A stretch of DNA of 64,000 nucleotides, taken from Bacillales bacterium UBA3789. Lineage in GTDB: Bacteria > Bacillota_I > Bacilli_A > RF39 > UBA660. A program made the position numbers and the translations under genes. Shown one piece after another: positions 22,408-64,000 of this stretch. The stretch's first letter is position 1. Each line of letters starts with the position of its first letter. Under the pieces are notes generated by a model. It was given only the letters and a program-made list of their open reading frames with translations. It was not told where the DNA came from and did not search any database. The stretch is taken from contig DFEZ01000011.1 in assembly GCA_002369415.1 (NCBI GenBank), positions 145,410 through 209,409 of the forward strand, in the 5' to 3' direction.

Positions 22408-22436
22408 AGAAAAAAAAAGAAAGATAATCTTTCTTT
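22408..22436 (-). terminator. Intrinsic terminator after pilD (AGAAAGAT-a-ATCTTTCT)
   Basis: Hairpin plus 9-nt T-run on the minus strand. Confidence 0.55.
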
Positions 22437-23202
22437 AAAATGATTTAATAATTTCTATTATTATTGGTAGATTTAATCTAGTAAAATATATGAACATAAA
22501 GCTAATAAGTAAGAATGGTCCAAATGGTACTAGATTCTCTTTCTTTAGTGCTAATATTATTAAAGATATAGGTAAAGCTAAGATACTTGCGATAAAGATT
22601 ACTACTAATCCTAATAATGGGTTAATTAATAATCCAAAGACAAACATTAATTTAATGTCTCCTCCACCTAAACTTTCTTTTCTAAATATTAGGTTTCCTA
22701 ATAACATTATTCCAAACATAAATCCAAATAATATTAGACCATATCCTAAACTAATAAGAGCACTTTTAATTCCATAATTTATGATATTTATTATAGTAAA
22801 GTATATTGAGAAAAATATTAATACTTCATCTGGAATAATAAAATAAGATATATCTGAAATAGAAATAATTATTAGCATTGCAACTATTCCTAAAGCAATT
22901 AATAATTCAAATGAGAATCCAAATACATAAAAACTTAAGGCAAATAGTATTCCTGTAAATATTTCCATATATGTTGATAATGAATTTATCTCTGAATGGC
23001 AATATCTACATTTACCTCTTAGGAATAAATATGATAATACTGGTATCATATCTAGAAGAGATAATTCATGATTACAGGTGTCACAGTGACTTCTTGTTTT
23101 TATAAAATCTTCATGATTAGGTAATCTTAGGCCAATTACAGTAAAGAATGATCCAAAAACAGTTCCTAAAATAAAGAAGATAATTAAGTATACTACGTTC
23201 AT
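22435..23202 (-). CDS. pilD: Type IV prepilin peptidase (A24 family; PilD/ComC-like)
   Basis: N-terminal TM, cytoplasmic tetra-Cys zinc motif (HCDTCNHEL ... GKCRYCHSEI), polytopic C-terminal peptidase domain with conserved Asp (ISDISYFIIPDE ... GGGDIKL). Confidence 0.85.
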   Translation of the reverse strand: MNVVYLIIFFILGTVFGSFFTVIGLRLPNHEDFIKTRSHCDTCNHELSLLDMIPVLSYLFLRGKCRYCHSEINSLSTYMEIFTGILFALSFYVFGFSFELLIALGIVAMLIIISISDISYFIIPDEVLIFFSIYFTIINIINYGIKSALISLGYGLILFGFMFGIMLLGNLIFRKESLGGGDIKLMFVFGLLINPLLGLVVIFIASILALPISLIILALKKENLVPFGPFLLISFMFIYFTRLNLPIIIEIIKSF

Positions 23203-23212
23203 AATTACCTCC

Positions 23213-24655
23213 CTATTTAATTTGACTATAAATTGAGAACATTGGTTGAATTATTGATACTAAGATAATACCAACTACTACTGCTAAGAAACAGATAAGT
23301 ATAGGTTCAACTAAACTTTTCATCTGATCAATAACGTTTTTATGTAACATTTGGAAGTGTTGAGCAACTTTTTCCATCATCGTTCCTAATTGACCAGTTG
23401 TTTCACCGGTAACAATCATCTCATATGCAACAATTGGAATTGCCCATTCTCCTTTAAATGCAGATGATATTGAATCTCCTCTACCTAAGTTCTCTAATGT
23501 TCCTGAAATAATTCTCTTATATACTTCATTTGATGTAATCTTAGATAAGATTTCCATTGAGTCTGTAATAAATACTCCATGGTTTAATAATGATGCAAAA
23601 GTCTTTGTGAAGTTTGCTATTTCATTATAAATAATAATATCTTTAATTACTGGTAAATGCATCAAGATTATTTGGACTGTTTCTCTAAATTTTTGAGATT
23701 TAGTAAATGCTTCATAGAAAACAAATACTATTGCAAATATAACTATTAATAGCACCCACCATTTTTGTGATATAAATTCACTAGTTGAAACAATTATTTT
23801 TGTTAACATAGGTAGTTCTGCACCATTATCTTCAAACATTGATGTGAACTGAGGAACTAAGTAAGTTAACATGAATATTAAAACTCCAAATGCTATTGTT
23901 AATACGACAATCGGATAAGTCATTGCTGATTTCATTTGTTTTCTTGTTTGATCCATTGATGTATAATACTCAGCCATATCATCTAAGATAGAAGGTAAAT
24001 CTCCTGTCATTTCAGCAGTCTTTACCATATTAACTAATAATTTTGGATAAACTTTATCTTGCATTAACATTGCATCTGATAAGTCTTCTCCTTTTAATAA
24101 TTGATATACCAATTGATTAAAGCTTTTCTTTAATCCTGGCTTTGTAGTTTGTTTTGCTAAGATTCTAACTGAATCTACTAGAGGAATACCTGATTTAATA
24201 TATGTAGATAATTGAGTTAGTGTAAATGATAGGTCACTTGCACCGATTCTACCATTTCCTCCGATATCTACATCGAATTTTCCTCTTTCTTTTATCTCTA
24301 AAACTTCATAATCTTGTCCTAATAAGAAGTTTCTAACATCATTTTCTGATTCTGCTTCAAAAGTACCACTTTCTTTTTTACCTACACCATTAATAATTGT
24401 ATATCTATAGTCATGAACTGGTCTTTTTACTTTTTCATTTGAATCAAGTGCTGTTGGTTGAGCTGCTAAAGTTACACTTGTATCTTGTGCCATACCATCA
24501 GCTGTACCAGAATTACTTCCTGGCATTATATTATTATAGATATTTTGTGGAGGTTGAGTTGCTTGTACTGGTTGAGTTGCTTGAACTTGTTGTTGTACTG
24601 CTGGCTGTTGTGTTGCTGTTAATTGTTGTGCATTTGCATTTGATTTACCAAACAT
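23213..24655 (-). CDS. pilC: Type IV pilus / competence pseudopilus platform protein (GspF family; PilC/ComGB-like) with Gln/Thr/Pro-rich N-terminal extension
   Basis: Two GspF cytoplasmic repeats (LSFTLTQLSTYIKSGIPLVDSV ... ; FTKTFASLLNHGVFITDSMEIL ...) and three TM segments, ending ...PMFSIYSQIK. The N-terminal 70 aa are low complexity (QQPAVQQQVQATQPVQATQPPQ). Confidence 0.8.
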   Translation of the reverse strand: MFGKSNANAQQLTATQQPAVQQQVQATQPVQATQPPQNIYNNIMPGSNSGTADGMAQDTSVTLAAQPTALDSNEKVKRPVHDYRYTIINGVGKKESGTFEAESENDVRNFLLGQDYEVLEIKERGKFDVDIGGNGRIGASDLSFTLTQLSTYIKSGIPLVDSVRILAKQTTKPGLKKSFNQLVYQLLKGEDLSDAMLMQDKVYPKLLVNMVKTAEMTGDLPSILDDMAEYYTSMDQTRKQMKSAMTYPIVVLTIAFGVLIFMLTYLVPQFTSMFEDNGAELPMLTKIIVSTSEFISQKWWVLLIVIFAIVFVFYEAFTKSQKFRETVQIILMHLPVIKDIIIYNEIANFTKTFASLLNHGVFITDSMEILSKITSNEVYKRIISGTLENLGRGDSISSAFKGEWAIPIVAYEMIVTGETTGQLGTMMEKVAQHFQMLHKNVIDQMKSLVEPILICFLAVVVGIILVSIIQPMFSIYSQIK

Positions 24656-30992: not shown

Positions 30993-31925
30993 TTACTCTA
31001 ATGTACATAAGGTACCTATTCCAGTATAATAATCCATGCTTTCTATTTCATCATCATATAGGACCATATAATCTATTTCTTCATTTCCGGCTTTTGGTGT
31101 AGATCTTTTTAGGAATTTTTCTCCTAAAGAGCACTCTGTTTTATTTTCAGTAAAAGTAAACTTATTATAATTATATTTACTAGTTAACCATTCATTAAAT
31201 GTCATTCCATCTTTAAATCTATAAGTTGTACATTGATTATGTTCAATATAACTACATATATTAAATGTTGGTACATCTTTTTCTATAACTATATTAGCAT
31301 TTATTTTTAATTTAAATTGTTCTAATGCAAATACTGATATTGGAATTAGAGATAAGCACATTATAATAATTAAAGCAGTATCTTTTTTACCATATTTAAT
31401 TACCATATATACTCCAAAACCTATCATTATTAAACTAATAATAGATAGAACTATATTTGAATGGCCTGTTTTGGGGTTATTTGTTAAATTAGCTAGATTT
31501 AACTGCATTACTCCGTTATTATTATAAACATTATTTTCAAACATATTATCATCTACTTCTTTAGTATATGTTGCTGTTACATATAATGTTTTCTTTGAGT
31601 TAGCTTTTAATATACTTTCTCCATCCATTTTAAAATCATATGTTATATAGTCATTACCTTTAAATTTTAAATCATCACTAATAACTAAATCATCAGATGA
31701 TGAGTTTTCTACTTCTATTTTATATTTTATAAAGTCATTTACTTCAAAGAAAGTAGTATCTACTGAAAAAGATAGTCCATCTACTGTTGGATCTTTATTA
31801 ACTAGTGTATTATCTGAGATATCATCTATTTCAATATTAGTTATTGAGATATTATTATCTGCATATACTACTACATATGAAAATATTAAAACTATTAATA
31901 CTATTAAAGTTAATATCTTTTTCAT
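30993..31925 (-). CDS. Hypothetical membrane/secreted protein (signal peptide, two ectodomains separated by an NPKTG + TM + KYGKK segment)
   Basis: N-terminal signal MKKILTLIVLIVLIFSYVVVYA; internal NPKTGHSNIVLSIISLIMIGFGVYMVIKYGKKD. Confidence 0.4.
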   Translation of the reverse strand: MKKILTLIVLIVLIFSYVVVYADNNISITNIEIDDISDNTLVNKDPTVDGLSFSVDTTFFEVNDFIKYKIEVENSSSDDLVISDDLKFKGNDYITYDFKMDGESILKANSKKTLYVTATYTKEVDDNMFENNVYNNNGVMQLNLANLTNNPKTGHSNIVLSIISLIMIGFGVYMVIKYGKKDTALIIIMCLSLIPISVFALEQFKLKINANIVIEKDVPTFNICSYIEHNQCTTYRFKDGMTFNEWLTSKYNYNKFTFTENKTECSLGEKFLKRSTPKAGNEEIDYMVLYDDEIESMDYYTGIGTLCTLE

Positions 31926-46334: not shown

Positions 46335-46362
46335 TAAAAAAAGAGAACTTAACGTTCTCTTT
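46335..46362 (-). terminator. Intrinsic terminator after the 46361 gene (AGAGAAC-ttaac-GTTCTCT)
   Basis: Hairpin plus T-run; closes the giant-pilin-1 / 46361 transcription unit. Confidence 0.5.
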
Positions 46363-47098
46363 AAATTCTTTCTAAGCCACTATCTAAATAAAAATCTTCT
46401 CCAGGTATTTTAAATGCAATTACAAGGTTACCACCTTCACTATAAAATAGTATTACATCATTATAGTTATTTTGTAATTCATATTCTTTATTTTCATCTT
46501 TATTTAATCTTTCTGTTGCATCTTTAATTGTTTTAGCAATTTCTTCATCTTTTACTTGTTCAATTTCTCTTATTTCTTCTTGAGTTAATAATCTCTTTTC
46601 TTTTTTATCATAAGTAAATGCTTCATAACTCAATGATTTTCTTTCTTCTGTACAATAATCTGTTTGTTTTCTATGTACTCCAATTGAAATTATGAAATCA
46701 TTCTCAAATGGAGCAAATCTTACTTCATTATATAATCTGTAGTTATATTTACTTCTTGCTTTATCACAAGTACTATCATTCATATCTGATTTCTTTGCTT
46801 CTTCAAATAATCTTAATGTTTCTTTATTAACTCTTTCTAGTTCTTTATTTAATACTTTATAATCATATTTTATTTTTATTAAATCATAATAATCATATAC
46901 TGGTCCTTGACAATCTTCAAGTGAATTCTTTTTACATACTTTTAATTTATTAGAATTGTCATAATCCCAGAAATTTTTATTTTCTACTTCTTGTTCTTTT
47001 GATGTAAATTTATTAAAACCAAATACACCTAATATGATTAATAATATTAATACAACTACTGAAATAATTATTTTATTTTTATTTTTATTCTTTTTCAT
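46361..47098 (-). CDS. Hypothetical membrane-anchored protein, immediately downstream of giant pilin-like gene 1
   Basis: MKKNKNKNKIIISVVVLILLIILGVFGF signal-anchor; only 38 nt from the pilin-1 stop, so likely co-transcribed. Confidence 0.45.
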   Translation of the reverse strand: MKKNKNKNKIIISVVVLILLIILGVFGFNKFTSKEQEVENKNFWDYDNSNKLKVCKKNSLEDCQGPVYDYYDLIKIKYDYKVLNKELERVNKETLRLFEEAKKSDMNDSTCDKARSKYNYRLYNEVRFAPFENDFIISIGVHRKQTDYCTEERKSLSYEAFTYDKKEKRLLTQEEIREIEQVKDEEIAKTIKDATERLNKDENKEYELQNNYNDVILFYSEGGNLVIAFKIPGEDFYLDSGLERI

Positions 47099-47136: not shown

Positions 47137-50100
47137 CTATCCTGGGCATGTAGAGTATGGGCAGACTGTATTATATCCACCTATACAGTTACGATAGATA
47201 TGTACCCAGTGACAATTACCATTCCAACATTGGTATGGAGTTTCTACATATCCATATAAATCTCCATAATACCAACTTGTATCTTCTGAAATAACATATA
47301 CTCTATCGTTACGTCCACCTAATGAGTGATAGATTGTACCAACGAAAGTACTATCATCTTTATAAGAACTATTATAAATTGCAGTCATTCCGGCACGACA
47401 CGCTGTTTTCCAAACACATCCTTTTGGATTATTTTCACCACAACATGATTGTGTAGTATTATATCCACATTTTGCTACGCTTCTATTTCCTGCTTTATCT
47501 ATTACAAGCATATAATTATAATATGTTGTTCCTCCACATGCTGTATTCAAAGCAGATGAACTTGACCATCCATTTGACCAAGCTATATCATTAGGATTTG
47601 AATAGTCTACTGTAGTTGCCATATAGTATCTAGCAGAAATACCACTGTATTCTACATTATTTATCTTATCATGTGATCCTGTATCACTCATTGATGATCC
47701 ACTTATACCACAAAGTGGAGTTGGAGGTTCAGGGTCCACAGGTGTATTACATGTTTTTGCAGCACATGATTCTTCGTTACCAGCTTTATCTTTTATTGTA
47801 AATGCTGGAACAGCTGTTGTCTTTCGTGCTGTATTTAGTGCAATTTCACCTTTAGCGGAATCGTCTGCAATACCACTTTCATTATCTGTTCCACCATATG
47901 TAAGTTTTAAATTTTTATTATTAGTCCATGAAGTAATACTACAATTTGCATATGAACATTTAGGAAGCACTGCATCTATTTTAACAACTTGATTATTTGG
48001 ACACGCATCTGAAACGTTACCAGCAACATCTTTAAATGTATAAGCTACTCCTGCTCCATTTGGTCCTCCATTAGATATATTTATACTTGTAGTTGTTGTA
48101 TATTTATGTGATTTTGTCTTTGATGCACAAGTACTTCCACCATCTTTATCACTACATTTACTTGTAACTACTACATAGTCACCTTTTTTCAACCATGTAT
48201 TTGATGGTGTTGTTGGTTGACCACTTGAATTATATTCAGCTTTTGTTGTTGAACATGTTGGTTTTGTGTAATCTATTTTTACTATTCTATTTGCAGGACA
48301 TTTTGTTGTATTGTCAGCATTATCTTTTACTGTTCCACCTTCATCTTTACCAGCTGCTCCTGCAGTTGTTGTTACTATTTCAAAATTATATAGATTAGAT
48401 AATGTTTTATATTCTTCATGACATCCTGAAACTACACTTTTTTGTGCCTTATCATTACATGTTGCTGTTACAGTTGCTGTTTCACCTTTCATTAACCAAC
48501 CATCTTCTGTGTTGTTATGTGTTTTTCTATCTCCTCCAGAATAAGTAACTTTTGTTGTACAATCAGGAGCTTTATGGTCTATTTTTATATCTTTAGTTGC
48601 TGCACAATTCACTGTATTTCCAGCATTATCAGTGAACGATCCACCTTTTCCTGCTCCTGCTGCTCCACCATTACTTATGTTAATATCATCTTTATATTCA
48701 TGTGAAAATACTTTTGAACTACACTCACTTATGCTTAATATTCCTTCTTTTTTTACATCATCACATGTTGCTGTTACAACAACCGTTTCACCTTTTCCTG
48801 CCCAGTCTGATTTAGAGAATTCTCCATCTCCTTCTGCTCCTTTTTCGTGATTCATTGTTCTTTCAACAGTACATTTTGGAGCTACTGTATCTAACCAAAT
48901 CTCTGGCTTGTGTGCAATATATCCTGAACAGTTATTGGCATTATCACACAATGCAAATTCAATCTTATCTTTTCCTTGATAATCCTTTGAGAATACGAAG
49001 GCTGTTTGATCTTTATCTCCATAATATTCGTTTTTATTTGTATCACTTGCTTCATTAACTAATAGTTTACCATTTAAATCATATACATTGTATTTTCCTT
49101 TATAGAAACCTGATACATTATCGTTTTTAAAGTTATTTGCGATATATGCTTTTACATATTTATTTGTCCATGTAGCTGGACTATAATCATTTCCGTTTTG
49201 AGCTCTTATATCATTCTTTTGAAGATATGAAGTATTTACTGTTAATCTTCTAACATTTGGTGCTGTCTTATCTACATATGCATTGATGTTTACGACTGTT
49301 TTATTTCCAGCTCTATCATATACTGTTAATTTACCCCATCTAACTCCATCTGTAGGTAATCCAATATCTATTGAATATGTATTATCATCAATGAATTTGT
49401 TTGTTGGAGTTTGAAAATCACCTAAGTCACTATCATCATTTGCATCTGATACTTTTTTCTCATCTGCAGTATATGTAGTTTTAGATTTTACTCCAGAAAC
49501 ATTTGTTTCCCATGTCCATGAAGCTAATTCGATATTATCTTTTGTAGTAACATGAATGACTGGTCCGTCTGGAGAATTACTTCCATTAAACCATTTGTTT
49601 TCATCTGCACCAGCATCAATTTTATATGTATTAAAATCTATTGTTCCTGAATTGTTTCTTCTATTACCATTTGCATCTAGTCCACCAACTGTCTTAGATG
49701 CAACTACTGGTTCATTGTCTCCTGCTTTTGCTTTAACTGTTACATTTACTTCTGGTTCTAGAATATCAACGTTTACTCTAACTAAACATCTATAGTCACC
49801 AGTTTCATCTCTTCTGTGGTTTGCATCTCCCGCATCATTCCAATCATCTGGAAGACTATCTTTTACTGGTCCATCATTTCCTGCATTATCCTTAATATAA
49901 ATCCAGGCATATTTTGCACCATATAGATATGGTTGAGTTCCATTAACTGTTTGATTATTTGGCCATGTTTGAGTAAATATTTCTCTTAAACATTGACTTC
50001 CATCACCATCTGAACATTTAATTTGAATACTCTTTCCTCTTCCGGCTTTTTCATATGCAGCACGGTTATACCATTCTCCTGGTTTTGCTTGAGTAAATTT

Positions 50101-50895
50101 AAGTAAGTTAGCACTATTATCTTCACAATATGGTGGTATTGTATCTTGATAATCTGCATAACTTCCTGTACCTGTTTCAGCATGTTCATCTAAACTTCCA
50201 CCTGTTGTGTTTCTTGCTAATACTGTTAATCTTACTGATGTTATACCTGTTAAATCAATATATTTTTTAATCTTTTCACTTACGTTTATTTCTGTTCTAT
50301 TTTCTCCATTTAAGACTCCAGAATTATACACTTCTTGGTAATCTGTTTGAGCATCACGTTTTGTAGAAATAACATATGTATAAGATGTAATTTCTGTATT
50401 CTTATTTGTTGCTGATCCTAATATTGTAAATGAGAAACTTGCAACACCAACGTCATTAGAATCAGAGAAAATAATTCCGTTCTTTAATACTGGTGGATCT
50501 ATTGCCTCTTCTATTGGAGGAACTTCACTACCACAATATACATGAGGCTTATAATCATAGGAATTCTTTCCTGTTTTAATTACCTCAATAAATGAATTCT
50601 CCATACAATTTTTACCATCATCACGAATAATATCTTCTGTTAGATATTTTGTATCTTTTAATTCTTGAAATGGTATTTTTATTGACTCTCCAATTCCTTT
50701 TGGAGCCAATTCTTTATTTGCTTGTAAGTAGCTTTTTGCAGCTAAAGTTGCTGATTTTACTTCTGTTATATTTTTTTCATTTTTAGATTTATCAATTACT
50801 CTAGATACTGCAAATATAGTTACTGATGCTAGTATTCCTAAAATAACTACTACTGCTAATAATTCTACTAATGAGAAACCCTTTCTATTATTCAT
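47137..50895 (-). CDS. Giant modular type IV pilin-like protein 1 (prepilin-type N-terminal cleavage/methylation domain + pilin head + Ig-like D-x-A-G-N modules + 4 Cys-bracketed tandem repeats + Cys-rich C-terminal domain)
   Basis: MNNRKG|FSLVELLAVVVILGILASVTIFAV class III signal (G-1, F+1, E+5); pilin head with Cys pair CMENSF...YCG; 1252 aa; own promoter TTGTAT-17-TATAAT at 50918-50946. Confidence 0.8.
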   Translation of the reverse strand: MNNRKGFSLVELLAVVVILGILASVTIFAVSRVIDKSKNEKNITEVKSATLAAKSYLQANKELAPKGIGESIKIPFQELKDTKYLTEDIIRDDGKNCMENSFIEVIKTGKNSYDYKPHVYCGSEVPPIEEAIDPPVLKNGIIFSDSNDVGVASFSFTILGSATNKNTEITSYTYVISTKRDAQTDYQEVYNSGVLNGENRTEINVSEKIKKYIDLTGITSVRLTVLARNTTGGSLDEHAETGTGSYADYQDTIPPYCEDNSANLLKFTQAKPGEWYNRAAYEKAGRGKSIQIKCSDGDGSQCLREIFTQTWPNNQTVNGTQPYLYGAKYAWIYIKDNAGNDGPVKDSLPDDWNDAGDANHRRDETGDYRCLVRVNVDILEPEVNVTVKAKAGDNEPVVASKTVGGLDANGNRRNNSGTIDFNTYKIDAGADENKWFNGSNSPDGPVIHVTTKDNIELASWTWETNVSGVKSKTTYTADEKKVSDANDDSDLGDFQTPTNKFIDDNTYSIDIGLPTDGVRWGKLTVYDRAGNKTVVNINAYVDKTAPNVRRLTVNTSYLQKNDIRAQNGNDYSPATWTNKYVKAYIANNFKNDNVSGFYKGKYNVYDLNGKLLVNEASDTNKNEYYGDKDQTAFVFSKDYQGKDKIEFALCDNANNCSGYIAHKPEIWLDTVAPKCTVERTMNHEKGAEGDGEFSKSDWAGKGETVVVTATCDDVKKEGILSISECSSKVFSHEYKDDINISNGGAAGAGKGGSFTDNAGNTVNCAATKDIKIDHKAPDCTTKVTYSGGDRKTHNNTEDGWLMKGETATVTATCNDKAQKSVVSGCHEEYKTLSNLYNFEIVTTTAGAAGKDEGGTVKDNADNTTKCPANRIVKIDYTKPTCSTTKAEYNSSGQPTTPSNTWLKKGDYVVVTSKCSDKDGGSTCASKTKSHKYTTTTSINISNGGPNGAGVAYTFKDVAGNVSDACPNNQVVKIDAVLPKCSYANCSITSWTNNKNLKLTYGGTDNESGIADDSAKGEIALNTARKTTAVPAFTIKDKAGNEESCAAKTCNTPVDPEPPTPLCGISGSSMSDTGSHDKINNVEYSGISARYYMATTVDYSNPNDIAWSNGWSSSSALNTACGGTTYYNYMLVIDKAGNRSVAKCGYNTTQSCCGENNPKGCVWKTACRAGMTAIYNSSYKDDSTFVGTIYHSLGGRNDRVYVISEDTSWYYGDLYGYVETPYQCWNGNCHWVHIYRNCIGGYNTVCPYSTCPG

Positions 50896-50917
50896 ATCAT
50901 CACCTACTATACAAATA

Positions 50918-50946
50918 ATTATAAAATATTTTTAATTTTTATACAA
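50918..50946 (-). promoter_or_regulatory. Candidate promoter for giant pilin-like gene 1 (TTGTAT-17 nt-TATAAT)
   Basis: Minus strand reads TTGTATaaaaattaaaaatatttTATAAT, 23 nt upstream of the ATG; RBS AGGTGA. Confidence 0.5.
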
Positions 50947-50985
50947 TATAAAAAACTAAATTTTGGCAATTTAGTTTTTTTTAAT
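50945..50985 (-). terminator. Intrinsic terminator after giant pilin-like gene 2
   Basis: AAAACTAAATT-ttggca-AATTTAGTTTT 11-bp stem followed by T-run. Confidence 0.6.
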
Positions 50986-50986
50986 T

Positions 50987-53900
50987 CTATCCTGGGCAAG
51001 TGGCATATGGACAGGCACTATTATTTCCTCCTACACAGTTTGGCCATATATATGCATATGGGGCATTTCCTGCAGGATACCATGATATATTACCACAAGG
51101 TGAATAAATATATAATTTCTTAGAAGCAGAACCTTCTATTAAATATAATCTATCACTACATGATGAGTCTTTTTGATGATATACAGTACCGGCATATGTT
51201 GTTTTTGCTTCACTTGTATAGATGAATGTTCTTCCGTTACGACACGCTGTCTTCCAATTACATCCCCATGGATTAGATTCACCACAACAAGAACCTGTTG
51301 TATATGAACCAGTACATACAAATGATTCTGAGTTACCTGCTTTATCAATTACTTTAATGTGACCATAGTAAGTAGTACCACAACTTGTTCCTAATGCATT
51401 TGATGATTTCCATGCATTTGATGAAGTTGATTGCTTACTACTTGAAGTACTTGATATGTATACGACAGATGATACTCCACTATGTGAATCACTCTTAGAA
51501 TTTACATTAATTTTATTTCCTGACACTGAACATGATCCAGTTGGTTTTGTTTTATCAACTAAAACATTACAACTTGGAGTACATTTTCTTTCGTTACCAG
51601 CAATATCTTTAATTATATATTCATCAAGAGTAAATGATTTAGTTGTTTCAGTAATTGTTCTATCTTTTAGTGTAGTTGCACAACCACTTCCATTTGTATC
51701 TTGGCAACCATATTTAACTGTTCTATTTTGATTTGTCCATGATGTATTATTACAATTTTCTGTATAACAACTTGGTGCTACTGCATCTATTTTTACTGTC
51801 TTATAACCACACATTTTTGTATTTCCAGCTGTATCTGATACCGATTTAGCAACGCCATCTCCTCCAGCTCCAGCTGTTGTTGTATTAATTAGTTTATCTG
51901 TTTGATAAAGTTTGCTGAATGTTTGAGTTGCACATTCACTTCCACCTTGATCAGAACATGTTGCTGTTACTCTTGCAGTTTCTCCTTTACTTAACCAGCC
52001 AGATTCAGTATTATCATGAGTTTTCTTATCTCCACCTTCATATGTGATTGATAAGTTACATACTGGATCAGTTTGATCTATTTTAACTGTTTTATTTGCA
52101 TCACAATTAGTTACATTATCTGCGGCATCTTTTACTGATCCGCCGTTTCCAACATCTATTGCTCCAGCATTATTTATATTTGTTTCTGTGCTATATGTTT
52201 TTGAAAATGGTTGAGTAACACAACCAGAATTAATATCTTTAGTCTCACTACATTTTGCTGTTACTACCGCTTGTTCTCCTTTACTTAACCAACCAGTTGA
52301 TGATAGTTTTCCATCACCTTTGCTGCTATCTGTTACTTCATATTTAATTGAAGTTGTACAAATTGGTGCAGTGTGATCTATTTTTACTGTTTGATTTGCT
52401 GAACAAGGTGCTTCATTTCCAGCATTATCTTTTACTGTTCCACCTTCATTATTACCAGCTGCTCCTGCAGTTGTTGTACTAATTGAATCTTTATATTCAT
52501 ATGAAATCTTTTCATCAACACAACCACTACCTGATTTACCAGCATTTTGATCTGAACATGTACCTGTAACTGTAATTGTTTCTCCTATTCCAGCCCATTT
52601 TGCATCAGATAGATATCCATCTACTTCATCAATAGTCTTATTAACATTTTGACTTACTGAACATACTGGATCTATTGTATCTAACCAAATTTCTTTTACT
52701 TCACTATAAGTTGAACAGTTATTTGCTTTATCACATATTCTATATCTTACACTGTTCTTTCCTTGATAGTTTGAATCAAATGTAAATTCAGTATCTCCTT
52801 TTTTAGTAGCATTATCATTTAGAGAAATTCCATGTCCTCTAACTTCAAATTCTGCTTTGTCAAATCCAGATATTGTATCTTTATGATAGTCTTTATTAAC
52901 GTATGTTTTTACATATTTATTAGTCCATGTTTTAGATTGATAATCTTTATCTTCATCTGCTCCAATATTATTCTTTTTAAGTGTTTTAGTAATTACAGTT
53001 GCTGGTGTATCAGGTCTTGTTCTATCAATATTTGCATAGATGTTAATAACTGTTTTATTACCAGCTCTATCATATACTGTTAATTTACCATATCTTATTC
53101 CTTCACCTTTTAATTGAACAACAAATTCAGATGAAGTTAATCCATTATCATTAATACTTAAGTCTTGTTCTGGGAATGATTCTTCTTTACTATCTGGGTT
53201 TCCTACTTTTATATCTTTAATTATATTTTTATTTTTAACATAATCAGATTTTGATACTCCAGTTTCATTTGTTTCCCATGTATATTTATATAGATGAAGA
53301 TTATCATTTACTTTGATCTTGTATGTTACTCCATCTTTATGTTCTTCATTAAACCAGATCCAGTTTTCATCTCTTGGAGATTTATTTAAATTATATGAAT
53401 TTGCTGTAATAGATGCTATATCATCATACTCATTATAATTTTCATCTGCTCCTCCAGCAGAAACTGTTTTAATAATATTATCATTTGTAATTGCTGTTAC
53501 TTCTACTCTTGGAGATAAGATGTCTACATTAACTCTTACACGGCAGCTTGCTTTTGTTTCTGCATTTGTAAGAGATGAGTTATTTGCATTATCTTTTACT
53601 TCTATATATGCATATTCTGCTCCCCAATAGTAATGTTTTTCTCCTCTATAAATATCATTATTAGGGAATGATTTAGTAAATGTAGTTCTTAAGCAACCAC
53701 TACCTTCTCCATCCCCACATGTTGCTGTTATCTTTCTATATCCGCCTTTAAGGCTTTCAATTGTATGTTTATTTGTCCATTCATTTGGTTTAGCTTCATT
53801 ATCTATTTTTATACATTTAGGAGATATTGTATCTCCATAGTCTCTTTCACTATCTATACCAGTTTGTTTTGTTATTGATGTTATACCACCTTGTTCATTT

Positions 53901-54601
53901 ATAACTGTAATATTAACTCTTACTGATGTTACTGAAACTATATCAACATAATCTACTAATTTATAAGATTTAATAATTTTAGTATTGTGATTTCCTGGAA
54001 CAGATCCACTATTATAAACTTCTTGATATGAAGTATTATCCTCTAACATTGTAGATATTGTGAAACTATAACTATCTATTTCTAATGGATTGTTTTTATC
54101 TTCTGATCCTTCCATTGTCATTGTAAAACTTGCTGATGAAACATCATCGGCATTTGAAAAATCAAATTTTGTTATTACTGGTGAAATTGCTTCTATCTCT
54201 GCTGGTGCTTTTTCATCACCACAATATAGATATGCAGTATAAGAATAGTCAGTTCCTTCTGATTTATAAACTCTAACAAAGCTTTCTTTCATACAAGTTT
54301 CTCCTCTAGAGTTTTTTAAATCACTAGTAATATACTTTGTATCTTTTAATTCTTTAGCAGTAATTATTTTATGTTCACCAATTGCTTTAGGTGCTTGATC
54401 TTTATTGTCTTGTAAATATTGTTTAGCTGCTACTAGCAATGTATCTTTTGCTTCAATATTTGTTTCATTTCTTGCTTTTTCAATATACTTACTTACAGCA
54501 GTTATTCCTACAACTGATAAAATCCCTAATATTACTATTACGGCTAATAATTCAACTAATGTGAACGCTTTACTACTTTTAGTTTTTTGTTCTTTACCCA
54601 T
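50987..54601 (-). CDS. Giant modular type IV pilin-like protein 2 (paralog of protein 1, same architecture)
   Basis: MGKEQKTKSSKA|FTLVELLAVIVILGILSVVGITAV prepilin N-terminus (E+5); head Cys pair CMKESF...YCG; 1204 aa; ends ...CPYATCPG like protein 1's ...CPYSTCPG. Confidence 0.8.
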   Translation of the reverse strand: MGKEQKTKSSKAFTLVELLAVIVILGILSVVGITAVSKYIEKARNETNIEAKDTLLVAAKQYLQDNKDQAPKAIGEHKIITAKELKDTKYITSDLKNSRGETCMKESFVRVYKSEGTDYSYTAYLYCGDEKAPAEIEAISPVITKFDFSNADDVSSASFTMTMEGSEDKNNPLEIDSYSFTISTMLEDNTSYQEVYNSGSVPGNHNTKIIKSYKLVDYVDIVSVTSVRVNITVINEQGGITSITKQTGIDSERDYGDTISPKCIKIDNEAKPNEWTNKHTIESLKGGYRKITATCGDGEGSGCLRTTFTKSFPNNDIYRGEKHYYWGAEYAYIEVKDNANNSSLTNAETKASCRVRVNVDILSPRVEVTAITNDNIIKTVSAGGADENYNEYDDIASITANSYNLNKSPRDENWIWFNEEHKDGVTYKIKVNDNLHLYKYTWETNETGVSKSDYVKNKNIIKDIKVGNPDSKEESFPEQDLSINDNGLTSSEFVVQLKGEGIRYGKLTVYDRAGNKTVINIYANIDRTRPDTPATVITKTLKKNNIGADEDKDYQSKTWTNKYVKTYVNKDYHKDTISGFDKAEFEVRGHGISLNDNATKKGDTEFTFDSNYQGKNSVRYRICDKANNCSTYSEVKEIWLDTIDPVCSVSQNVNKTIDEVDGYLSDAKWAGIGETITVTGTCSDQNAGKSGSGCVDEKISYEYKDSISTTTAGAAGNNEGGTVKDNAGNEAPCSANQTVKIDHTAPICTTSIKYEVTDSSKGDGKLSSTGWLSKGEQAVVTAKCSETKDINSGCVTQPFSKTYSTETNINNAGAIDVGNGGSVKDAADNVTNCDANKTVKIDQTDPVCNLSITYEGGDKKTHDNTESGWLSKGETARVTATCSDQGGSECATQTFSKLYQTDKLINTTTAGAGGDGVAKSVSDTAGNTKMCGYKTVKIDAVAPSCYTENCNNTSWTNQNRTVKYGCQDTNGSGCATTLKDRTITETTKSFTLDEYIIKDIAGNERKCTPSCNVLVDKTKPTGSCSVSGNKINVNSKSDSHSGVSSVVYISSTSSSKQSTSSNAWKSSNALGTSCGTTYYGHIKVIDKAGNSESFVCTGSYTTGSCCGESNPWGCNWKTACRNGRTFIYTSEAKTTYAGTVYHQKDSSCSDRLYLIEGSASKKLYIYSPCGNISWYPAGNAPYAYIWPNCVGGNNSACPYATCPG

Positions 54602-54628: not shown

Positions 54629-54660
54629 ATTATATCAAAAACAGAGTATATAAATCAATA
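54629..54660 (-). promoter_or_regulatory. Candidate promoter for giant pilin-like gene 2 (TTGATT-18 nt-TGaTATAAT, extended -10)
   Basis: Minus strand reads TTGATTtatatactctgttttTGATATAAT, about 28 nt upstream of the ATG; RBS AGGGTGA. Confidence 0.5.
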
Positions 54661-55377: not shown

Positions 55378-55965
55378 CTATCTATTCATAGCTATCTTTG
55401 TATCGTCTTCTATTACTTGGATTATTCCATGATAATGACTATCACTTGGAACAATACTATCTTTATCTATCCAAACTCTTATTGTAATAGTTTTTTCATC
55501 TAACGCTTCTATTTCACTATCTAATAGTATTTTATCTTCTAATTCAGATAAGTAATATATTTCATTTGATTTATTATCCTCTTTTACAGATATTTTTATA
55601 TCTTCTTTAGGTATTTGTTTATCATCACATCTATCACTAATTATACTTTCTATATCATCTAGTATTTTTACTTTATAATTAACATTTTCAGTTAAGTTGT
55701 TCTTAATAGATAATACATATGAATTTGATGATAATCCAACTGAGTCAGTTACAGGAGTTGCTTTTGTAATAGATATTTTATCTCCTGATTTTTCATGATA
55801 AGAAATATCTAATGAATCAGAACTAAAATCTATGTCACTACTTCCTGTATATTTATTATATATATATAATGTTGATACTACTGCTACTAATAAAACACAA
55901 GCAATTTGTAGTATGCTTTTAATTAAAAATTTCTTCATACCTGATTTATACATGTTACACCTCAA
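55378..55965 (-). CDS. Hypothetical membrane-anchored protein
   Basis: N-terminal TM (FLIKSILQIACVLLVAVVSTLYIY) and an extracytoplasmic domain. Confidence 0.4.
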   Translation of the reverse strand: MRCNMYKSGMKKFLIKSILQIACVLLVAVVSTLYIYNKYTGSSDIDFSSDSLDISYHEKSGDKISITKATPVTDSVGLSSNSYVLSIKNNLTENVNYKVKILDDIESIISDRCDDKQIPKEDIKISVKEDNKSNEIYYLSELEDKILLDSEIEALDEKTITIRVWIDKDSIVPSDSHYHGIIQVIEDDTKIAMNR

Positions 55966-62212: not shown

Positions 62213-62899
62213 TTATTCTACTAATAATCCCATAACTAATTGATATTTATGATTAGGATCTCCATTAGAACAAGTTTGAAGTATTATTACATGAGATTCT
62301 TCTTCTAACTCAATATCACTATGTATATTTGATTTATTCTTTAATTTATTTAAATGTTCTTTATAAGTAAGTCCATTAAAACTCTTTAGATTTACATAAT
62401 CAAAATCTTGTGTTTCTATATAACTAGAAAAGATTTCATATTTATATTTTTTATCATTTGTATAAAGATAGATATATTTATTATTTTCATAAAATTCTTG
62501 ATTATTATAATTAGATAGTTTATTAAATGATAGAGTTATTTCCATATCACTGTGACCATATACTAGTAGTTTTTTATCATTTAATAAGTCATTTCTATAA
62601 TCTAAGAATGTAGCACCATAGATGTCTTCTTCTTTTTTTATATTATGATTTAAATAATAATCATTATCAGATGTTTGTAGTAATATTTCTTTAAATAAAT
62701 TAGGTATTTCTATTACACCTACTATATCATCATTGTTGTATTCTTTTTTTAATTTATCTACTATCTTAGTATCTTCCTTAACTTCTGGAATATTTATTTC
62801 CGGTTTATAATCATATTTTCTATCTACTGATTTAATACCTATAAAGAATACTGAAATGATTAGAATTAATAGTAAGAGTACTCTTAATACTTTCTTCAT
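62213..62899 (-). CDS. srtB: Class B sortase
   Basis: N-terminal TM, YGH His motif (LLVYGHSDM), KYKYEIFSSY beta-strand pattern, LQTC catalytic Cys motif; co-linear with S. aureus SrtB. Confidence 0.65.
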   Translation of the reverse strand: MKKVLRVLLLLILIISVFFIGIKSVDRKYDYKPEINIPEVKEDTKIVDKLKKEYNNDDIVGVIEIPNLFKEILLQTSDNDYYLNHNIKKEEDIYGATFLDYRNDLLNDKKLLVYGHSDMEITLSFNKLSNYNNQEFYENNKYIYLYTNDKKYKYEIFSSYIETQDFDYVNLKSFNGLTYKEHLNKLKNKSNIHSDIELEEESHVIILQTCSNGDPNHKYQLVMGLLVE

Positions 62900-62971
62900 G
62901 TAACCACTCCATTTACGAACATATTATAACATATATAAATAAAAAAAACCAAGCAATGCTTGGCTTTTTTA

Positions 62972-64000
62972 TTAATCCTCTAATTTCTTTCTAAATATTA
63001 CTGCAATTAAACTTGATACGAATAATACGAATAATTCAATTAAACTTCCTTTATTATTATATCCAATACCTGTATTAGGTGGAGTTATTTCTGGAACAGG
63101 TCCATTATATTTATTAGTAATATCAAATCCATTGATTATAGTTTCATAATTAGCTACTTTAATTTCATTAATTGAATAAACTATTTCAATTCCTTGATCT
63201 CTATATTTATATAATGGATTTCCATCATAATCTTCATAGAATGTATAAACCCATCCATTTTCAGCAGTTAATTCTGCAGTTCCGATTTCTTCACCATCAG
63301 CGTATAAGATTATAGTTATTAAAGCAGGTCTTGATGAATATTTATTGTCTTCATCATCCCAAGTTTTAGTTACAGTTATTTGTCCATCATTATCTGGATC
63401 ATCATCGTCTTCATTTATTAGCTCTGGAATATGAGTATTTTCTAATTCACCATCGAATTCATATGTGTCTCCGTCAGTGTATTCTTCACCCTCATGAGTA
63501 TTATTAACTGGAGTAACTTCTCCTGGAGTATAGTAAGGTACTGCCTCTTCAGAAATTGTATATTCAACTGGTTGTCCATTCATGTATTTTGGTAAATTAG
63601 TGAATGTATGTGTCCATTTGTTGAAGTCTTCAGCTTCTTCAATAGTAATTACAGTTGGCTCTCCATAAGCTTCTCCGTTTGCTAATAATTGAACTGTGAT
63701 TGATTCTGGTCTCTTACCATCTCTATCGTAATCATCATTCCAAATCTTAGAAATTGTATAATTAATAACTTCTGGAGTATGTGTATTAACGATATCTAAT
63801 GATTTAAGATCATCTGTTCTTTCATATTTTTCACTGTCGCAAGTTTCTGCAACTGTGTAATCTATTACTTCACCATTTGCATATTTTGGAACTTCTGGGA
63901 ATGTTACTGTCCATTGATTACCTTCTGATAATACGTCAGTAAATTCTGTTGGTTCTCCATTTGCTAGTAAAGTTACTGTAATATTTTCAGGTCTCATACC
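62972..64000 (-). CDS. Cell-wall-anchored adhesin with Cna B-type repeats and C-terminal PPNTG sorting signal (5' end beyond window)
   Basis: At least 3 Cna-B repeats (RPESITVQLLANGE...NKWTHTF..LPKY.NGQPVEYTISE). C-terminus is PPNTG + hydrophobic helix + RKKLED. Confidence 0.7.
   Translation of the reverse strand, partial: GMRPENITVTLLANGEPTEFTDVLSEGNQWTVTFPEVPKYANGEVIDYTVAETCDSEKYERTDDLKSLDIVNTHTPEVINYTISKIWNDDYDRDGKRPESITVQLLANGEAYGEPTVITIEEAEDFNKWTHTFTNLPKYMNGQPVEYTISEEAVPYYTPGEVTPVNNTHEGEEYTDGDTYEFDGELENTHIPELINEDDDDPDNDGQITVTKTWDDEDNKYSSRPALITIILYADGEEIGTAELTAENGWVYTFYEDYDGNPLYKYRDQGIEIVYSINEIKVANYETIINGFDITNKYNGPVPEITPPNTGIGYNNKGSLIELFVLFVSSLIAVIFRKKLED

What the first reader, a model, noticed from the sequence alone, without database searches (positions are those of the whole stretch)
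47137..54601. Two tandem, paralogous giant (1252 aa and 1204 aa) type IV pilin-like proteins
Both ORFs open with a textbook class III (prepilin) signal: a short basic leader, Gly or Ala at -1, Phe at +1, Glu at +5, then about 20 hydrophobic residues (MNNRKG|FSLVELLAVVVILGILASV and MGKEQKTKSSKA|FTLVELLAVIVILGILSVV). A roughly 100-aa pilin-like head with a conserved Cys pair follows (CMENSFIEV...YCG and CMKESFVRV...YCG). After that come more than 1000 residues of extra modules. Ordinary type IV pilins and pseudopilins are 100-200 aa. Modular pilins carrying one grafted domain are known in Gram-positive T4P (for example the bimodular S. sanguinis pilins), but a pilin scaffold carrying about seven Ig-like modules, four tandem repeats and a Cys-rich terminal domain is far outside that range. 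Each gene has its own promoter-like element and terminator. The pair sits where Firmicutes normally carry plsX/fab genes downstream of yceD-rpmF, which suggests an accessory insertion. This is the best candidate in the window for an undescribed adhesive pilus or fibre-tip system.
Basis: partly seen in the sequence, partly recalled or inferred. Interest (0 to 1): 0.9.

Follow-up and report, generated by a model that had tools for sequence, protein, structure and literature searches.

The report
Two giant modular type IV pilins
Two neighbouring genes in an uncultured sheep-rumen bacterium encode 1,200-residue proteins that start like ordinary pilus subunits but carry a long chain of nine Ig-like modules ending in a small swappable binding domain, an extreme and undescribed version of the known trick of grafting adhesive modules onto a pilin.

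Summary
The two ORFs are real: minus strand, 1,252 and 1,204 aa, 42% identical. Both pass the curated prepilin models, and Glu+5 is invariant in 79 relatives. AlphaFold2 (pLDDT 80) predicts a 50-residue alpha1 helix, a small disulfide-bonded head, nine all-beta modules (six from one repeat family, including four tandem repeats) and a 105-aa Cys-rich tip.

The same window encodes a prepilin peptidase and a PilC-type platform protein. No assembly ATPase lies in the 64 kb, but a PilB-type ATPase adjoins family members in a related contig.

The proteins belong to a family of more than 100 almost unannotated metagenomic proteins, 86 of them 1,000 aa or longer. Head and stalk are conserved and the tips are polymorphic. 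A related genome shows gene conversion of the distal end between the tandem copies.

Best reading: giant modular minor pilins acting as long-reach adhesins on a type IV filament. Filament display and ligand are inferred. This is a new variant of a known kind (modular pilins; largest previously noted, 860 aa).

The parts
50987..54601 (-). pilin2: 1,204-aa giant modular prepilin (leader MGKEQKTKSSKA|F, Ala at -1)
   Evidence: ORF. N_methyl and TIGR02532 above cut-off. Full-length AF2 model with pLDDT 80.4. The exact sequence occurs in NCBI, ENA and Logan contigs, in a cluster of 8 members.
54209..54601 (-). pilin2 pilin module (residues 1-131): class III signal, alpha1 helix, small beta head with the C103-C127 pair
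   Evidence: AF2 gives helix 16-65 and strands 77-81, 108-115 and 118-124. The head profile hits only type IV pilins and pseudopilins in the PDB, 21 hits. Stand-alone 122-148-aa pilins match the whole head.
51305..54208 (-). pilin2 stalk (residues 132-1099): nine all-beta modules M1, M2, M3, M4, R1-R4 and M9
   Evidence: AF2 secondary structure. Foldseek matches multi-Ig fibres: GhpA, titin, MpIBP and S-layer proteins. hhalign shows that M2, M4 and R1-R4 form one module family.
51548..52672 (-). pilin2 tandem repeats R1-R4 (residues 644-1018)
   Evidence: hhalign probability is 99.5% for R1/R2, 99.2% for R1/R3, 99.1% for R2/R3, and 97.7-98.3% for R4 against R1-R3.
50990..51304 (-). pilin2 tip (residues 1100-1204): Cys-rich small beta-barrel, SH3b-like, ending in ...CPYATCPG
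47137..50895 (-). pilin1: 1,252-aa giant modular prepilin (leader MNNRKG|F)
   Evidence: ORF. N_methyl 30.2 bits and TIGR02532 27.1 bits. 42% identical to pilin2. Only 55% identical to its L001 orthologue, against 81-93% for flanking genes.
50521..50895 (-). pilin1 pilin module (residues 1-125), with the C97-C121 pair
   Evidence: Alignments A1 and A3. 46% identical to a 122-aa stand-alone pilin in L015.
47461..50520 (-). pilin1 stalk (residues 126-1145), same nine-module layout; tandem repeats R1-R4 at residues 672-1056 (window 47728-48882)
   Evidence: Colinear alignment with pilin2. Boundary motifs (V/I)D-x3-P. Module identities.
47140..47460 (-). pilin1 tip (residues 1146-1252): same tip family as pilin2 but only 49-51% identical
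   Evidence: Alignment A2. Module identities.
50945..50980 (-). AT-rich terminator-like hairpin plus U-tract after pilin2
   Evidence: Fold of -11.3 kcal/mol, z -4.77, 0 of 200 shuffles as stable. Sequence read.
54629..54658 (-). Promoter-like element between rpmF and pilin2 (TTGATT-18-TATAAT with an upstream TG)
   Evidence: Consensus scan, 10 of 12 matches. This is a pattern match only.
46361..47098 (-). 245-aa membrane-anchored protein, apparently co-transcribed with pilin1; function unknown
   Evidence: 38-nt gap with no hairpin. Terminator at 46340-46362. Conserved after the giants in L001 (73%) and L004 (33%). No Pfam or PDB relative.
22435..23202 (-). Prepilin peptidase / N-methyltransferase (PilD type), 255 aa
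   Evidence: PF06750 A24_N_bact at 1.7e-29 and PF01478 Peptidase_A24 at 2.5e-13. The Cys4 motif and both Asp motifs are visible in the sequence.
23213..24655 (-). PilC/GspF-type platform protein, 480 aa, with a Q-rich N-terminal extension
   Evidence: PF00482 T2SSF matched twice, 2e-50. GspF model 306 bits and PilC 257 bits, against ComGB 143 bits.

Best explanation
Both genes encode giant modular type IV (minor) pilins.

Shown:
- Each protein has a canonical class III signal peptide.
- Each has a complete small pilin module: alpha1 plus a disulfide-bonded beta head.
- Nine Ig-like beta modules follow, then a roughly 105-aa Cys-rich tip.

Inferred mechanism:
1. The prepilin is inserted into the membrane.
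2. The PilD-type peptidase encoded 24 kb away cuts the leader after Gly or Ala at -1 and methylates Phe+1.
3. A PilB-type ATPase working with the PilC-type platform extracts the alpha1 helix from the membrane and docks it into the core of a type IV filament. The invariant Glu+5 pairs with the N-terminus of the subunit above.
4. The bulk of the protein most likely restricts the giants to the tip complex, or to sparse positions in a filament built from a small major pilin encoded elsewhere.
5. The stalk would be roughly 35-40 nm long if each module spans about 4 nm. It holds out a small beta-barrel tip that binds a ligand. The ligand is possibly a glycan or cell-wall polymer, given the resemblance to SH3b cell-wall-binding domains.
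6. Tips are exchangeable cassettes. Family members share head and stalk but carry unrelated tips, and tandem paralogues exchange their distal ends by gene conversion. This diversifies ligand specificity, antigenicity, or both.
For: - **Prepilin signal:** above curated cut-offs in both proteins. Glu+5 is invariant and Gly-1 and Phe+1 are at least 90% conserved in 79 relatives.
- **Role of Glu5:** it is used for subunit docking in the filament core, and only the capping subunit lacks it (PMC10191384).
- **Pilin relatives:** the head profile retrieves only type IV pilins and pseudopilins from the PDB.
- **Stand-alone heads:** pilins of 122-148 aa are homologous to the entire head. One sits directly upstream of an 875-aa family member.
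- **Predicted structure:** lollipop head plus nine beta modules, pLDDT 80.4.
- **Stalk fold:** Foldseek matches multi-Ig fibres.
- **Machinery in the window:** PilD-type peptidase and PilC-type platform.
- **ATPase in a relative:** a PilB/GspE-type ATPase adjoins large family pilins in L014.
- **Scattered genes in relatives:** T4P genes are dispersed in a related gut lineage, with a 150-aa N_methyl protein 10 kb from the ATPase.
- **Tip polymorphism:** shown.
- **Gene conversion:** a tract over the distal modules in L001, at 84/73/89% identity against about 45% elsewhere, with a 71-nt exact match.
- **Fast divergence:** pilin1 is 55% identical to its orthologue, against 81-93% for neighbouring genes.
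- **Precedent:** modular pilins PilB and PilC of S. sanguinis and CofB (PMC8179133).
Against: - No T2SSE ATPase, PilM/N/O or small major pilin lies in the 64-kb window. The rest of the genome could not be reached.
- Pilin2 and its orthologues have Ala or even Thr at -1 instead of Gly. This may impair cleavage.
- No experiment shows processing, methylation or filament incorporation.
- The ligand is unknown.
- Nearly all of the 1,200 residues lie outside the pilin module. Passage of such a subunit through a Gram-positive wall is unexamined.
Confidence: 0.58

Rival explanations
1. Membrane-anchored fibrillar adhesins that never enter a filament. The class III signal is cleaved, or left intact, and the hydrophobic alpha1N simply anchors a roughly 40-nm Ig-like stalk in the membrane. 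The stalk spans the Gram-positive wall and exposes the tip at the cell surface.
For: - In all five fully inspected family loci the only prepilin-type genes are giants. No small pilin or ATPase lies beside them.
- Up to five giants occur in a row in L004.
- A few tip carriers have a plain transmembrane anchor instead of a pilin N-terminus: P0243, P0254, P0266 and P0273.
- The stalk length would suit wall crossing (inference).
Against: - An invariant buried Glu+5 and a near-invariant Gly-1/Phe+1 in 79 sequences are needless for a simple anchor, and a buried charge there would be unfavourable.
- The head is a complete pilin module shared with stand-alone small pilins.
- A platform protein and a peptidase with a methyltransferase domain are kept in the genome.
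- An ATPase is linked to family members in L014.
Confidence: 0.25
2. The giants are themselves the major, polymerising subunits and build a 'bottle-brush' type IV filament. Every subunit would project a 40-nm Ig-like arm, analogous to giant flagellins.
For: - No small pilin lies in the window or next to the giants in L001-L004.
- Glu+5 is retained in all members.
- There are several paralogues per genome.
Against: - Steric crowding and passage through the wall seem prohibitive (inference).
- Related lineages do encode small pilins with the same head.
- Published modular pilins are low-abundance, probably tip-located subunits (PMC8179133).
- Fast divergence and tip swapping fit a low-copy adhesin better than a structural polymer.
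Confidence: 0.07
3. A polymorphic-toxin-like delivery system. The conserved head and stalk would deliver a variable C-terminal effector, and the small downstream ORFs would be immunity proteins.
For: - Conserved N-terminal 1,000 residues with unrelated, exchangeable C-termini.
- Small ORFs follow several giants: 142, 143 and 148 aa, and the 245-253-aa protein.
Against: - The window-type tip is a 105-aa disulfide-rich beta-barrel resembling binding domains, not an enzyme.
- No ORF lies between pilin2 and pilin1.
- The 245-aa protein is a conserved membrane protein (73% and 33% identity). It does not co-vary with the tip.
- The other tips are Cys-rich repeats, not toxin folds.
Confidence: 0.04
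4. Assembly or annotation artefact: fused ORFs or pseudogenes.
For: Metagenome contigs often break inside these genes.
Against: - Intact colinear orthologues of the same length occur in independent assemblies and samples: 1,204, 1,203 and 1,205 aa, and 1,252, 1,255, 1,235 and 1,259 aa.
- Both ORFs are uninterrupted.
- The structure prediction is confident across module boundaries.
- Codon usage is native.
Confidence: 0.01

Closest known systems
Modular minor pilins PilB (vWA module) and PilC (lectin module) of Streptococcus sanguinis type IV pili (Raynaud et al. 2021, PMC8179133; PMC9934059)
   Same: Monoderm host. A small N-terminal pilin module with a class III signal peptide is joined by a short linker to non-pilin adhesive modules. 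They are proposed to be tip-exposed and to act directly as adhesins.
   Different: - The S. sanguinis pilins carry one grafted, database-recognisable domain. These proteins carry about ten grafted modules (nine Ig-like plus a tip), none recognised by Pfam at threshold.
- These proteins are 1,200-2,000 aa. The 2021 survey's most extreme case was 860 aa.
- The tips here are polymorphic and are exchanged between tandem paralogues.
- The genes here are not in a pil operon.
CofB / TcpB / LngB, the large tip-located minor pilins of type IVb pili
   Same: A pilin module is followed by a beta-repeat linker region and a C-terminal beta-sandwich binding domain. They sit at the tip and initiate assembly (as summarised in PMC8179133 and PMC10191384).
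   Different: They are about 420-520 aa, from Gram-negative T4b systems, encoded inside the pilus operon, trimeric, and have no long Ig-like stalk. No sequence similarity was detected.
SH3b cell-wall-binding domains of phage endolysins and autolysins (e.g. phiSM101 Psm 4krt, PlyPSA 1xov, A500 6hx0, AtlE R2ab, lysostaphin)
   Different: - There is no SH3 Pfam match.
- Foldseek is not significant.
- The tip is stapled by 10 Cys and has a conserved CC-x-(E)SN-P-x-GC...CR-G...C-x-Y-x-x-CPG signature not seen in SH3b domains.
- This is fold resemblance only.
Fibrillar adhesins and fibres built from tandem Ig-like domains (Aureispira GhpA grappling hook 9fly/9flp, MpIBP 4p99, PrgB, S-layer proteins)
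   Same: Best structural matches to the stalk are long chains of beta-sandwich modules presenting a distal binding end.
   Different: Those proteins are exported and anchored by other routes (T9SS, T1SS, sortase, SLH). None has a pilin module. Identity is only 8-12%.

Membership tests
Type IV pilin / type 4 filament subunit | Class III signal peptide: short hydrophilic leader ending in Gly (or Ala), Phe+1, Glu+5, then about 20 hydrophobic residues | tested here: met
   PF07963 at 30.2 and 23.5 bits (cut-off 21.2). TIGR02532 at 27.1 and 21.7 bits (cut-off 16.3). E+5 is invariant in 79 sequences. Caveat: pilin2 has Ala at -1, and one orthologue has Thr.
Type IV pilin / type 4 filament subunit | Lollipop fold: extended alpha1 helix of about 50 residues packed on a beta-sheet head, often with a C-terminal disulfide | tested here: met
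   AF2 gives helix 16-65 and strands 77-81, 108-115 and 118-124 (a prediction). The Cys pair C103/C127 is at least 90% conserved. The head profile matches only pilins in the PDB, mainly through alpha1.
Type IV pilin / type 4 filament subunit | Dedicated prepilin peptidase in the genome | tested here: met
   Window 22435-23202: A24_N_bact plus Peptidase_A24, with the Cys4 and two Asp motifs.
Type IV pilin / type 4 filament subunit | Platform protein and extension ATPase in the genome | tested here: inconclusive
   A platform protein is present at 23213-24655. No T2SSE ATPase lies in the 64 kb. The rest of the 213-kb contig and the genome could not be retrieved. A PilB-type ATPase adjoins family members in L014.
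Type IV pilin / type 4 filament subunit | Leader cleavage, N-methylation and polymerisation into a filament | not testable with these tools
   This needs biochemistry and EM.
Modular pilin (sensu Raynaud et al. 2021) | N-terminal pilin module fused through a short linker to one or more modules not specific to T4P biology | tested here: met
   Head 1-125/131, then a Pro-rich linker, then nine Ig-like modules and a tip. Stand-alone pilins equal to the head alone exist.
Com (competence) pseudopilus pilins ComGC-GG | Match to ComG equivalog models, with ComGA/ComGB-type machinery | tested here: not met
   All ComG models score far below their cut-offs, 13-21 bits against 49-80. The platform scores GspF 306 bits and PilC 257 bits, against ComGB 143. 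The related ATPase scores PilB 449 bits and GspE 465, against ComGA 267.
SH3b (bacterial SH3) cell-wall-binding domain | SH3-like beta-barrel recognised by SH3_3/SH3_5-type profiles, or a strong structural match | tested here: inconclusive
   [not shown]
Bacterial Ig-like domains (Big_3_2 / Big_13 / HYR) | Profile match above the gathering score | tested here: not met
   In the window proteins only a sub-threshold Big_3_2 hit was found, 15.7 bits against 23.3. Some relatives carry precomputed PF12245, PF19077 or PF02494 hits. The fold is Ig-like by Foldseek. The D-x-AGN...(V/I)D-x3-P motif resembles HYR and Big domains; that point rests on my own knowledge.
Sortase-anchored (LPXTG) pilins and adhesins | C-terminal LPXTG motif, hydrophobic stretch and basic tail | tested here: not met
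   Both proteins end in ...C-P-Y-x-T-C-P-G, with no sorting signal. A separate sortase and Cna_B locus lies at 62213-63997.
Polymorphic toxin systems | Variable C-terminal toxin domain with a cognate immunity gene immediately downstream | tested here: not met
   The tip is a small disulfide-rich binding-type barrel. No ORF follows pilin2. The downstream 245-aa protein is conserved (73% and 33% identity) and does not track the tip.

The most novel reading that the evidence does not exclude
These proteins may be retractable 'grappling hooks'. A type IV filament, or the giants themselves polymerised into a bottle-brush, would present 40-nm Ig-like arms whose SH3b-like tips grip the cell-wall polymers of other bacteria. 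That would let a small-genome rumen bacterium attach to partner or prey cells. Tip cassettes shuffled between tandem paralogues by gene conversion would retarget the hook. This would be a new mode of interbacterial attachment and a new class of pilus-borne variable receptor-binding proteins.
Probability: 0.12. Interest if true: 0.85.

Novelty: new variant of a known kind. Interest (0 to 1): 0.6.

Why it matters
- Type IV filaments are nearly universal, and how they gain new functions is an active question. The published answer is grafting one functional module onto a pilin.
- This family pushes that principle much further. It adds about ten modules and 1,000-2,000 residues, a long spacer stalk and interchangeable tips. 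It comes from abundant but uncultured gut and rumen Bacilli, whose surface biology is essentially unknown.
- It also shows that domain-database surveys miss the largest modular pilins, because none of the grafted modules has a signature.
- If the tips bind cell-wall or dietary glycans, they would be natural variable-specificity binding modules. They would also point to how reduced-genome gut bacteria attach to partners or substrates.

Tried and rejected
1. **ATPase in the window organism.**
   - Six-frame Walker A and phmmer scans of the window found none.
   - Extending beyond the window ends through exact-protein look-ups returned only short contigs. The 213-kb NCBI contig was not retrievable.
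   - A homologue search with the L014 ATPase core was saturated by one abundant gut lineage at 93-100% identity, so it never reached the window lineage.
2. **BLASTP self-comparison for internal repeats** returned only the trivial hit. It was replaced by profile-profile comparison of alignment slices.
3. **The word-indexed homologue search with the tip profile** found only two fragments. The exhaustive HMM search was needed.
4. **The metagenome scan** keyed only on the pilin N-terminus, so it returned a mixture of small and large pilins from many organisms. It was useful for stand-alone head homologues and for L014, but not as a census of the family.
5. **Whole-family profile against PDB sequences** matched only alpha1. 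The stalk has no sequence relative, apart from a marginal R28 hit at E 0.04.
**The AFDB fold library** was unavailable.
7. **Horizontal-transfer idea** (raised GC of the pilin genes). Rejected: GC3 is native, and the excess is at codon position 2.
8. **Polymorphic-toxin idea.** Rejected; see the rival explanations.
9. **Rfam scan of the window** gave no hits.
10. **Organism naming through cluster annotations** yielded only 'Bacilli bacterium' and 'uncultured Bacillales'.

Full report
**1. Observation**

Two uninterrupted ORFs lie head to tail on the minus strand at 50987-54601 (pilin2, 1,204 aa) and 47137-50895 (pilin1, 1,252 aa). They align end to end at 42% identity.

Both exceed the curated cut-offs:

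| Model | pilin1 (bits) | pilin2 (bits) | Cut-off (bits) |
|---|---|---|---|
| Pfam N_methyl (PF07963) | 30.2 | 23.5 | 21.2 |
| TIGR02532 | 27.1 | 21.7 | 16.3 |

A six-frame motif scan finds no other prepilin-type N-terminus in the 64 kb.

**2. Anatomy**

A 79-sequence family alignment shows the following:
- Glu+5 is invariant.
- Gly-1, Phe+1 and the two head cysteines are at least 90% conserved.

AlphaFold2 on pilin2 residues 1-1200 with that alignment gives mean pLDDT 80.4. The model contains:
- a 50-residue helix (residues 16-65);
- a small beta head (strands 77-81, 108-115 and 118-124);
- nine all-beta modules;
- a C-terminal domain.

The module boundaries I derived for pilin2 are:

| Module | Residues |
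|---|---|
| head | 1-131 |
| M1 | 132-258 |
| M2 | 259-362 |
| M3 | 363-528 |
| M4 | 529-643 |
| R1 | 644-744 |
| R2 | 745-844 |
| R3 | 845-941 |
| R4 | 942-1018 |
| M9 | 1019-1099 |
| tip | 1100-1204 |

Pilin1 is colinear. Modules are delimited by a recurring (V/I)D-x3-P motif.

Profile-profile comparison of alignment slices shows:
- R1-R3 are clearly homologous (99-99.5%).
- R4 (98%), M2 (97-98%) and M4 (95-97%) belong to the same module family.
- M3 shares only its C-terminal part.
- M1, M9 and the head are unrelated types.

Foldseek of the full model returns chains of Ig-like domains: the Aureispira GhpA grappling-hook fibre, titin, the MpIBP ice adhesin, PrgB and S-layer proteins. At the sequence level the stalk has no relative among solved structures. 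It has only sub-threshold Pfam hits.

**3. The pilin module is a complete pilin**

- A profile of the first 130 or so residues retrieves 21 PDB sequences at E of 0.01 or better. All are type IV pilins or pseudopilins, aligned mainly through alpha1. Examples are Geobacter PilA-N, S. sanguinis PilE1, Myxococcus PilA, PAK, gonococcal pilin, PpdD, Thermus PilA4/5 and GspG.
- Among loci fetched from metagenomes there are stand-alone pilins of 122-148 aa that match the giants' head over their whole length. One is L015, 46% identical over 121 residues.
- In L016 such a 138-aa pilin sits immediately upstream of an 875-aa family member.

This is the 'pilin plus grafted modules' design defined for S. 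sanguinis PilB and PilC (PMC8179133).

**4. The tip**

The last 100-105 residues run from CC(G/S)ESNP-x-GC to a C-terminal C-x-Y-x-x-CPG. They form a discrete module with ten Cys.

- Modelled alone, it is a confident small beta-barrel (pLDDT 85, pTM 0.75).
- Z never exceeds 6.0, and Foldseek finds nothing significant (best E 0.19).
- I therefore treat 'SH3b-like' as a fold resemblance and a lead to the ligand, not as membership.

An exhaustive HMM search of 1.84 billion representative proteins finds the tip only 43 times, always at the extreme C-terminus. Nearly always the carrier has a prepilin N-terminus, on proteins of 589-1,260 aa.

**5. The family**

The full-length search returns 115 relatives. 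86 are 1,000 aa or longer, and the longest is 2,021 aa. Almost all come from metagenomes. The only names attached are:
- 'type II secretion system protein [Bacilli bacterium]';
- 'type IV pilus assembly protein PilA' (JGI);
- 'prepilin-type N-terminal cleavage/methylation domain-containing protein' (JGI).

Coverage of pilin1 by these relatives is about 100 of 115 over residues 1-950. It falls to 16-27 over the last 150 residues. Head and stalk are conserved and the tip is polymorphic.

| Tip type | Members (of 115) |
|---|---|
| Window type | about 19 |
| 6-8 copies of a C-x4-CG(V/I)-x2-Y-x2-C repeat | about 40 |
| Ending in ...MGW(I/F)E | a few |
| Something else | the rest |

**6. Locus history**

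The evidence points the other way.

- The order HI0933-like, FAD protein, Zn-peptidase, MYG1, 195-aa TM protein, YceD, L32, giant pilin(s) recurs in L001, L003, L004 and L010.
- In L001 and L004 the 245-aa protein follows the giants, and in L001 addB and addA come next.
- The housekeeping proteins of these relatives are 51-93% identical to the window's.
- Copy number varies, reaching five giants in L004.
- GC3 of the giants (0.095-0.117) equals that of their neighbours. Their higher overall GC comes from codon position 2.

The giants do evolve quickly. Against L001, flanking proteins are 81-93% identical, pilin2 is 78% and pilin1 is 55%.

The divergence is mosaic:
- L001's pilin1 orthologue is about 70% identical to pilin1 in head-M2 but 38-47% in R4-tip.
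- Its R4, M9 and tip are 64%, 60% and 80% identical to pilin2.
- Within L001 the two tandem paralogues are 84%, 73% and 89% identical over R4, M9 and tip, against 37-55% elsewhere. They share a 71-nt exact DNA match.

This is a gene-conversion tract over the distal end. In the window the two genes keep distinct distal ends (42-51% identity).

**7. Machinery**

The window encodes two type IV pilus machinery components about 24 kb from the pilins.

*Prepilin peptidase with methyltransferase domain, 22435-23202:*
- A24_N_bact at 1.7e-29 and Peptidase_A24 at 2.5e-13.
- The four Cys and both catalytic Asp motifs are present.

*Platform protein, 23213-24655:*
- Two T2SSF domains.
- It resembles GspF/PilC models over their full length more than ComGB (306 and 257 bits against 143).

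No T2SSE ATPase lies in the window. I could not reach the rest of the 213-kb source contig.

In related material:
- L014 carries two large family pilins next to a 769-aa T2SSE ATPase (E 1.5e-118). That ATPase is PilB/GspE-like rather than ComGA-like.
- In the abundant gut lineage that owns this ATPase the gene stands alone, with a 150-aa N_methyl protein 10 kb away.

T4P genes are therefore scattered in these genomes. The absence of an ATPase from one 64-kb window is weak evidence.

**8. Transcription signals**

- A good promoter-like element lies between rpmF and pilin2: TTGATT-18-TATAAT with an upstream TG. Overall, such matches are not enriched over shuffles.
- An AT-rich 13-bp hairpin with a U-tract follows pilin2 (-11.3 kcal/mol, z -4.8).
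- Nothing comparable follows pilin1. Only 38 nt separate it from the 245-aa gene, which is followed by a clear terminator.
- The likely units are pilin2 alone, and pilin1 together with the 245-aa gene.

**9. Mechanism**

*Shown:*
- prepilin signal;
- pilin module;
- Ig-like stalk and polymorphic tip;
- peptidase and platform in the same genome region.

*From established knowledge (PMC10191384):* Glu5 pairs with the N-terminal amine of the subunit above in the filament core, and only the capping subunit lacks it. Modular pilins are thought to be tip-exposed (PMC8179133).

*Inferred:* the giants are processed by the peptidase. They dock through alpha1 and Glu5 into a type IV filament, at or near its tip or sparsely along it. 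They act as long-reach adhesins whose specificity resides in the exchangeable tip.

The invariant Glu5 is the main argument against the chief rival, a plain membrane-anchored fibril. That rival cannot be excluded. No small pilin or ATPase was found beside any window-type giant. A few tip carriers use an ordinary transmembrane anchor.

The polymorphic-toxin, bottle-brush and artefact readings are less likely, for the reasons given under the rival explanations.

**10. Comparison and novelty**

These proteins work like modular minor pilins (S. sanguinis PilB and PilC; CofB and TcpB). They meet the definition of that class.

They differ in four ways:
- **Scale:** about ten grafted modules and 1,000-2,000 aa. 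The most extreme case in the 2021 InterPro survey was 860 aa.
- **Signatures:** no grafted module is recognised by a domain signature, so such surveys miss them.
- **Tip:** the tip module is pilin-specific and polymorphic, with evidence of cassette exchange.
- **Genomic setting:** a conserved slot after rpmF, away from the machinery.

Searches for 'giant pilin(s)', 'large pilins', 'megapilin' and for modular pilins with SH3 found no description.

The host is an uncultured low-GC member of the Bacilli from the sheep rumen. Its proteins recur in AUXO01 and SRR873604 (PMC4158751).

**Verdict:** a real feature, a new variant of a known kind, and moderately high interest. Filament display and the ligand are still to be shown.

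Noticed in passing
window 23213-24655 (-); L014 4708-7017 (-): The PilC-type platform has an N-terminal extension of about 80 aa rich in Q, T and P. The PilB-type ATPase linked to family pilins in L014 has a C-terminal tail of about 350 aa rich in Q, P and V. The tail length varies (593-720 aa proteins) among strains whose catalytic cores are 93-100% identical. Low-complexity tails on cytoplasmic T4P machinery are unusual.
   Followed up: partly
window 62213-62899 (-) and 62972-63997 (-): A sortase gene is preceded by a Cna_B-repeat protein that runs off the window end (797 aa in L010). The same genome therefore also has a sortase-anchored adhesin or pilus.
   Followed up: partly
window 46361-47098 (-): A 245-aa membrane-anchored protein is apparently co-transcribed with pilin1. 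It is conserved downstream of the giants in L001 (73%) and L004 (33%). It has no Pfam or PDB relative and may be an accessory factor.
   Followed up: partly
window 55378-55965 (-): A 195-aa N-terminally anchored protein lies between the MYG1 gene and yceD. It is conserved at that position in L001, L003, L004 and L010 (51-79% identity), has no family hit, and its function is unknown.
   Followed up: partly
window 30993-31925 (-): A 310-aa ORF has a signal peptide and a sortase-signal-like stretch (NPKTG, hydrophobic segment, KYGKK) in the middle of the protein, followed by about 110 more residues. It has no family hit.
   Followed up: no
window 36794-38728 (-): A 644-aa ORF rich in K and E looks coiled-coil-like. 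It has no Pfam match and sits upstream of obg.
   Followed up: no
family proteins P0011-P0056 (e.g. P0043, L002 10001-13423): About 40 of the 115 family members carry a different tip. It consists of 6-8 copies of a 13-14-residue Cys-rich repeat, C-x4-CG(V/I)-x2-Y-x2-C, ending in CWH(Y/F). A third tip type ends in ...GNS..P.Y...MGW(I/F)E. None is characterised.
   Followed up: partly
L020 2513-9293: A 1,075-aa family pilin lies directly after two thioester-domain (TED) plus SpaA-domain adhesin genes. This juxtaposes two different surface-adhesin systems.
   Followed up: no
L004 6620-23558: One JGI contig carries five giant pilin genes in a row (1,080, 1,185, 1,190, 1,006 and 1,192 aa). They are interrupted by a 253-aa homologue of the window's 245-aa protein and by an HTH_38 gene on the opposite strand, which may be a transposase or integrase-type regulator.
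   Followed up: partly
L010 10765-12666: Independent metagenome contigs end inside pilin2. This fits assembly breaks caused by strain-level variation or internal repeats in these genes.
   Followed up: no
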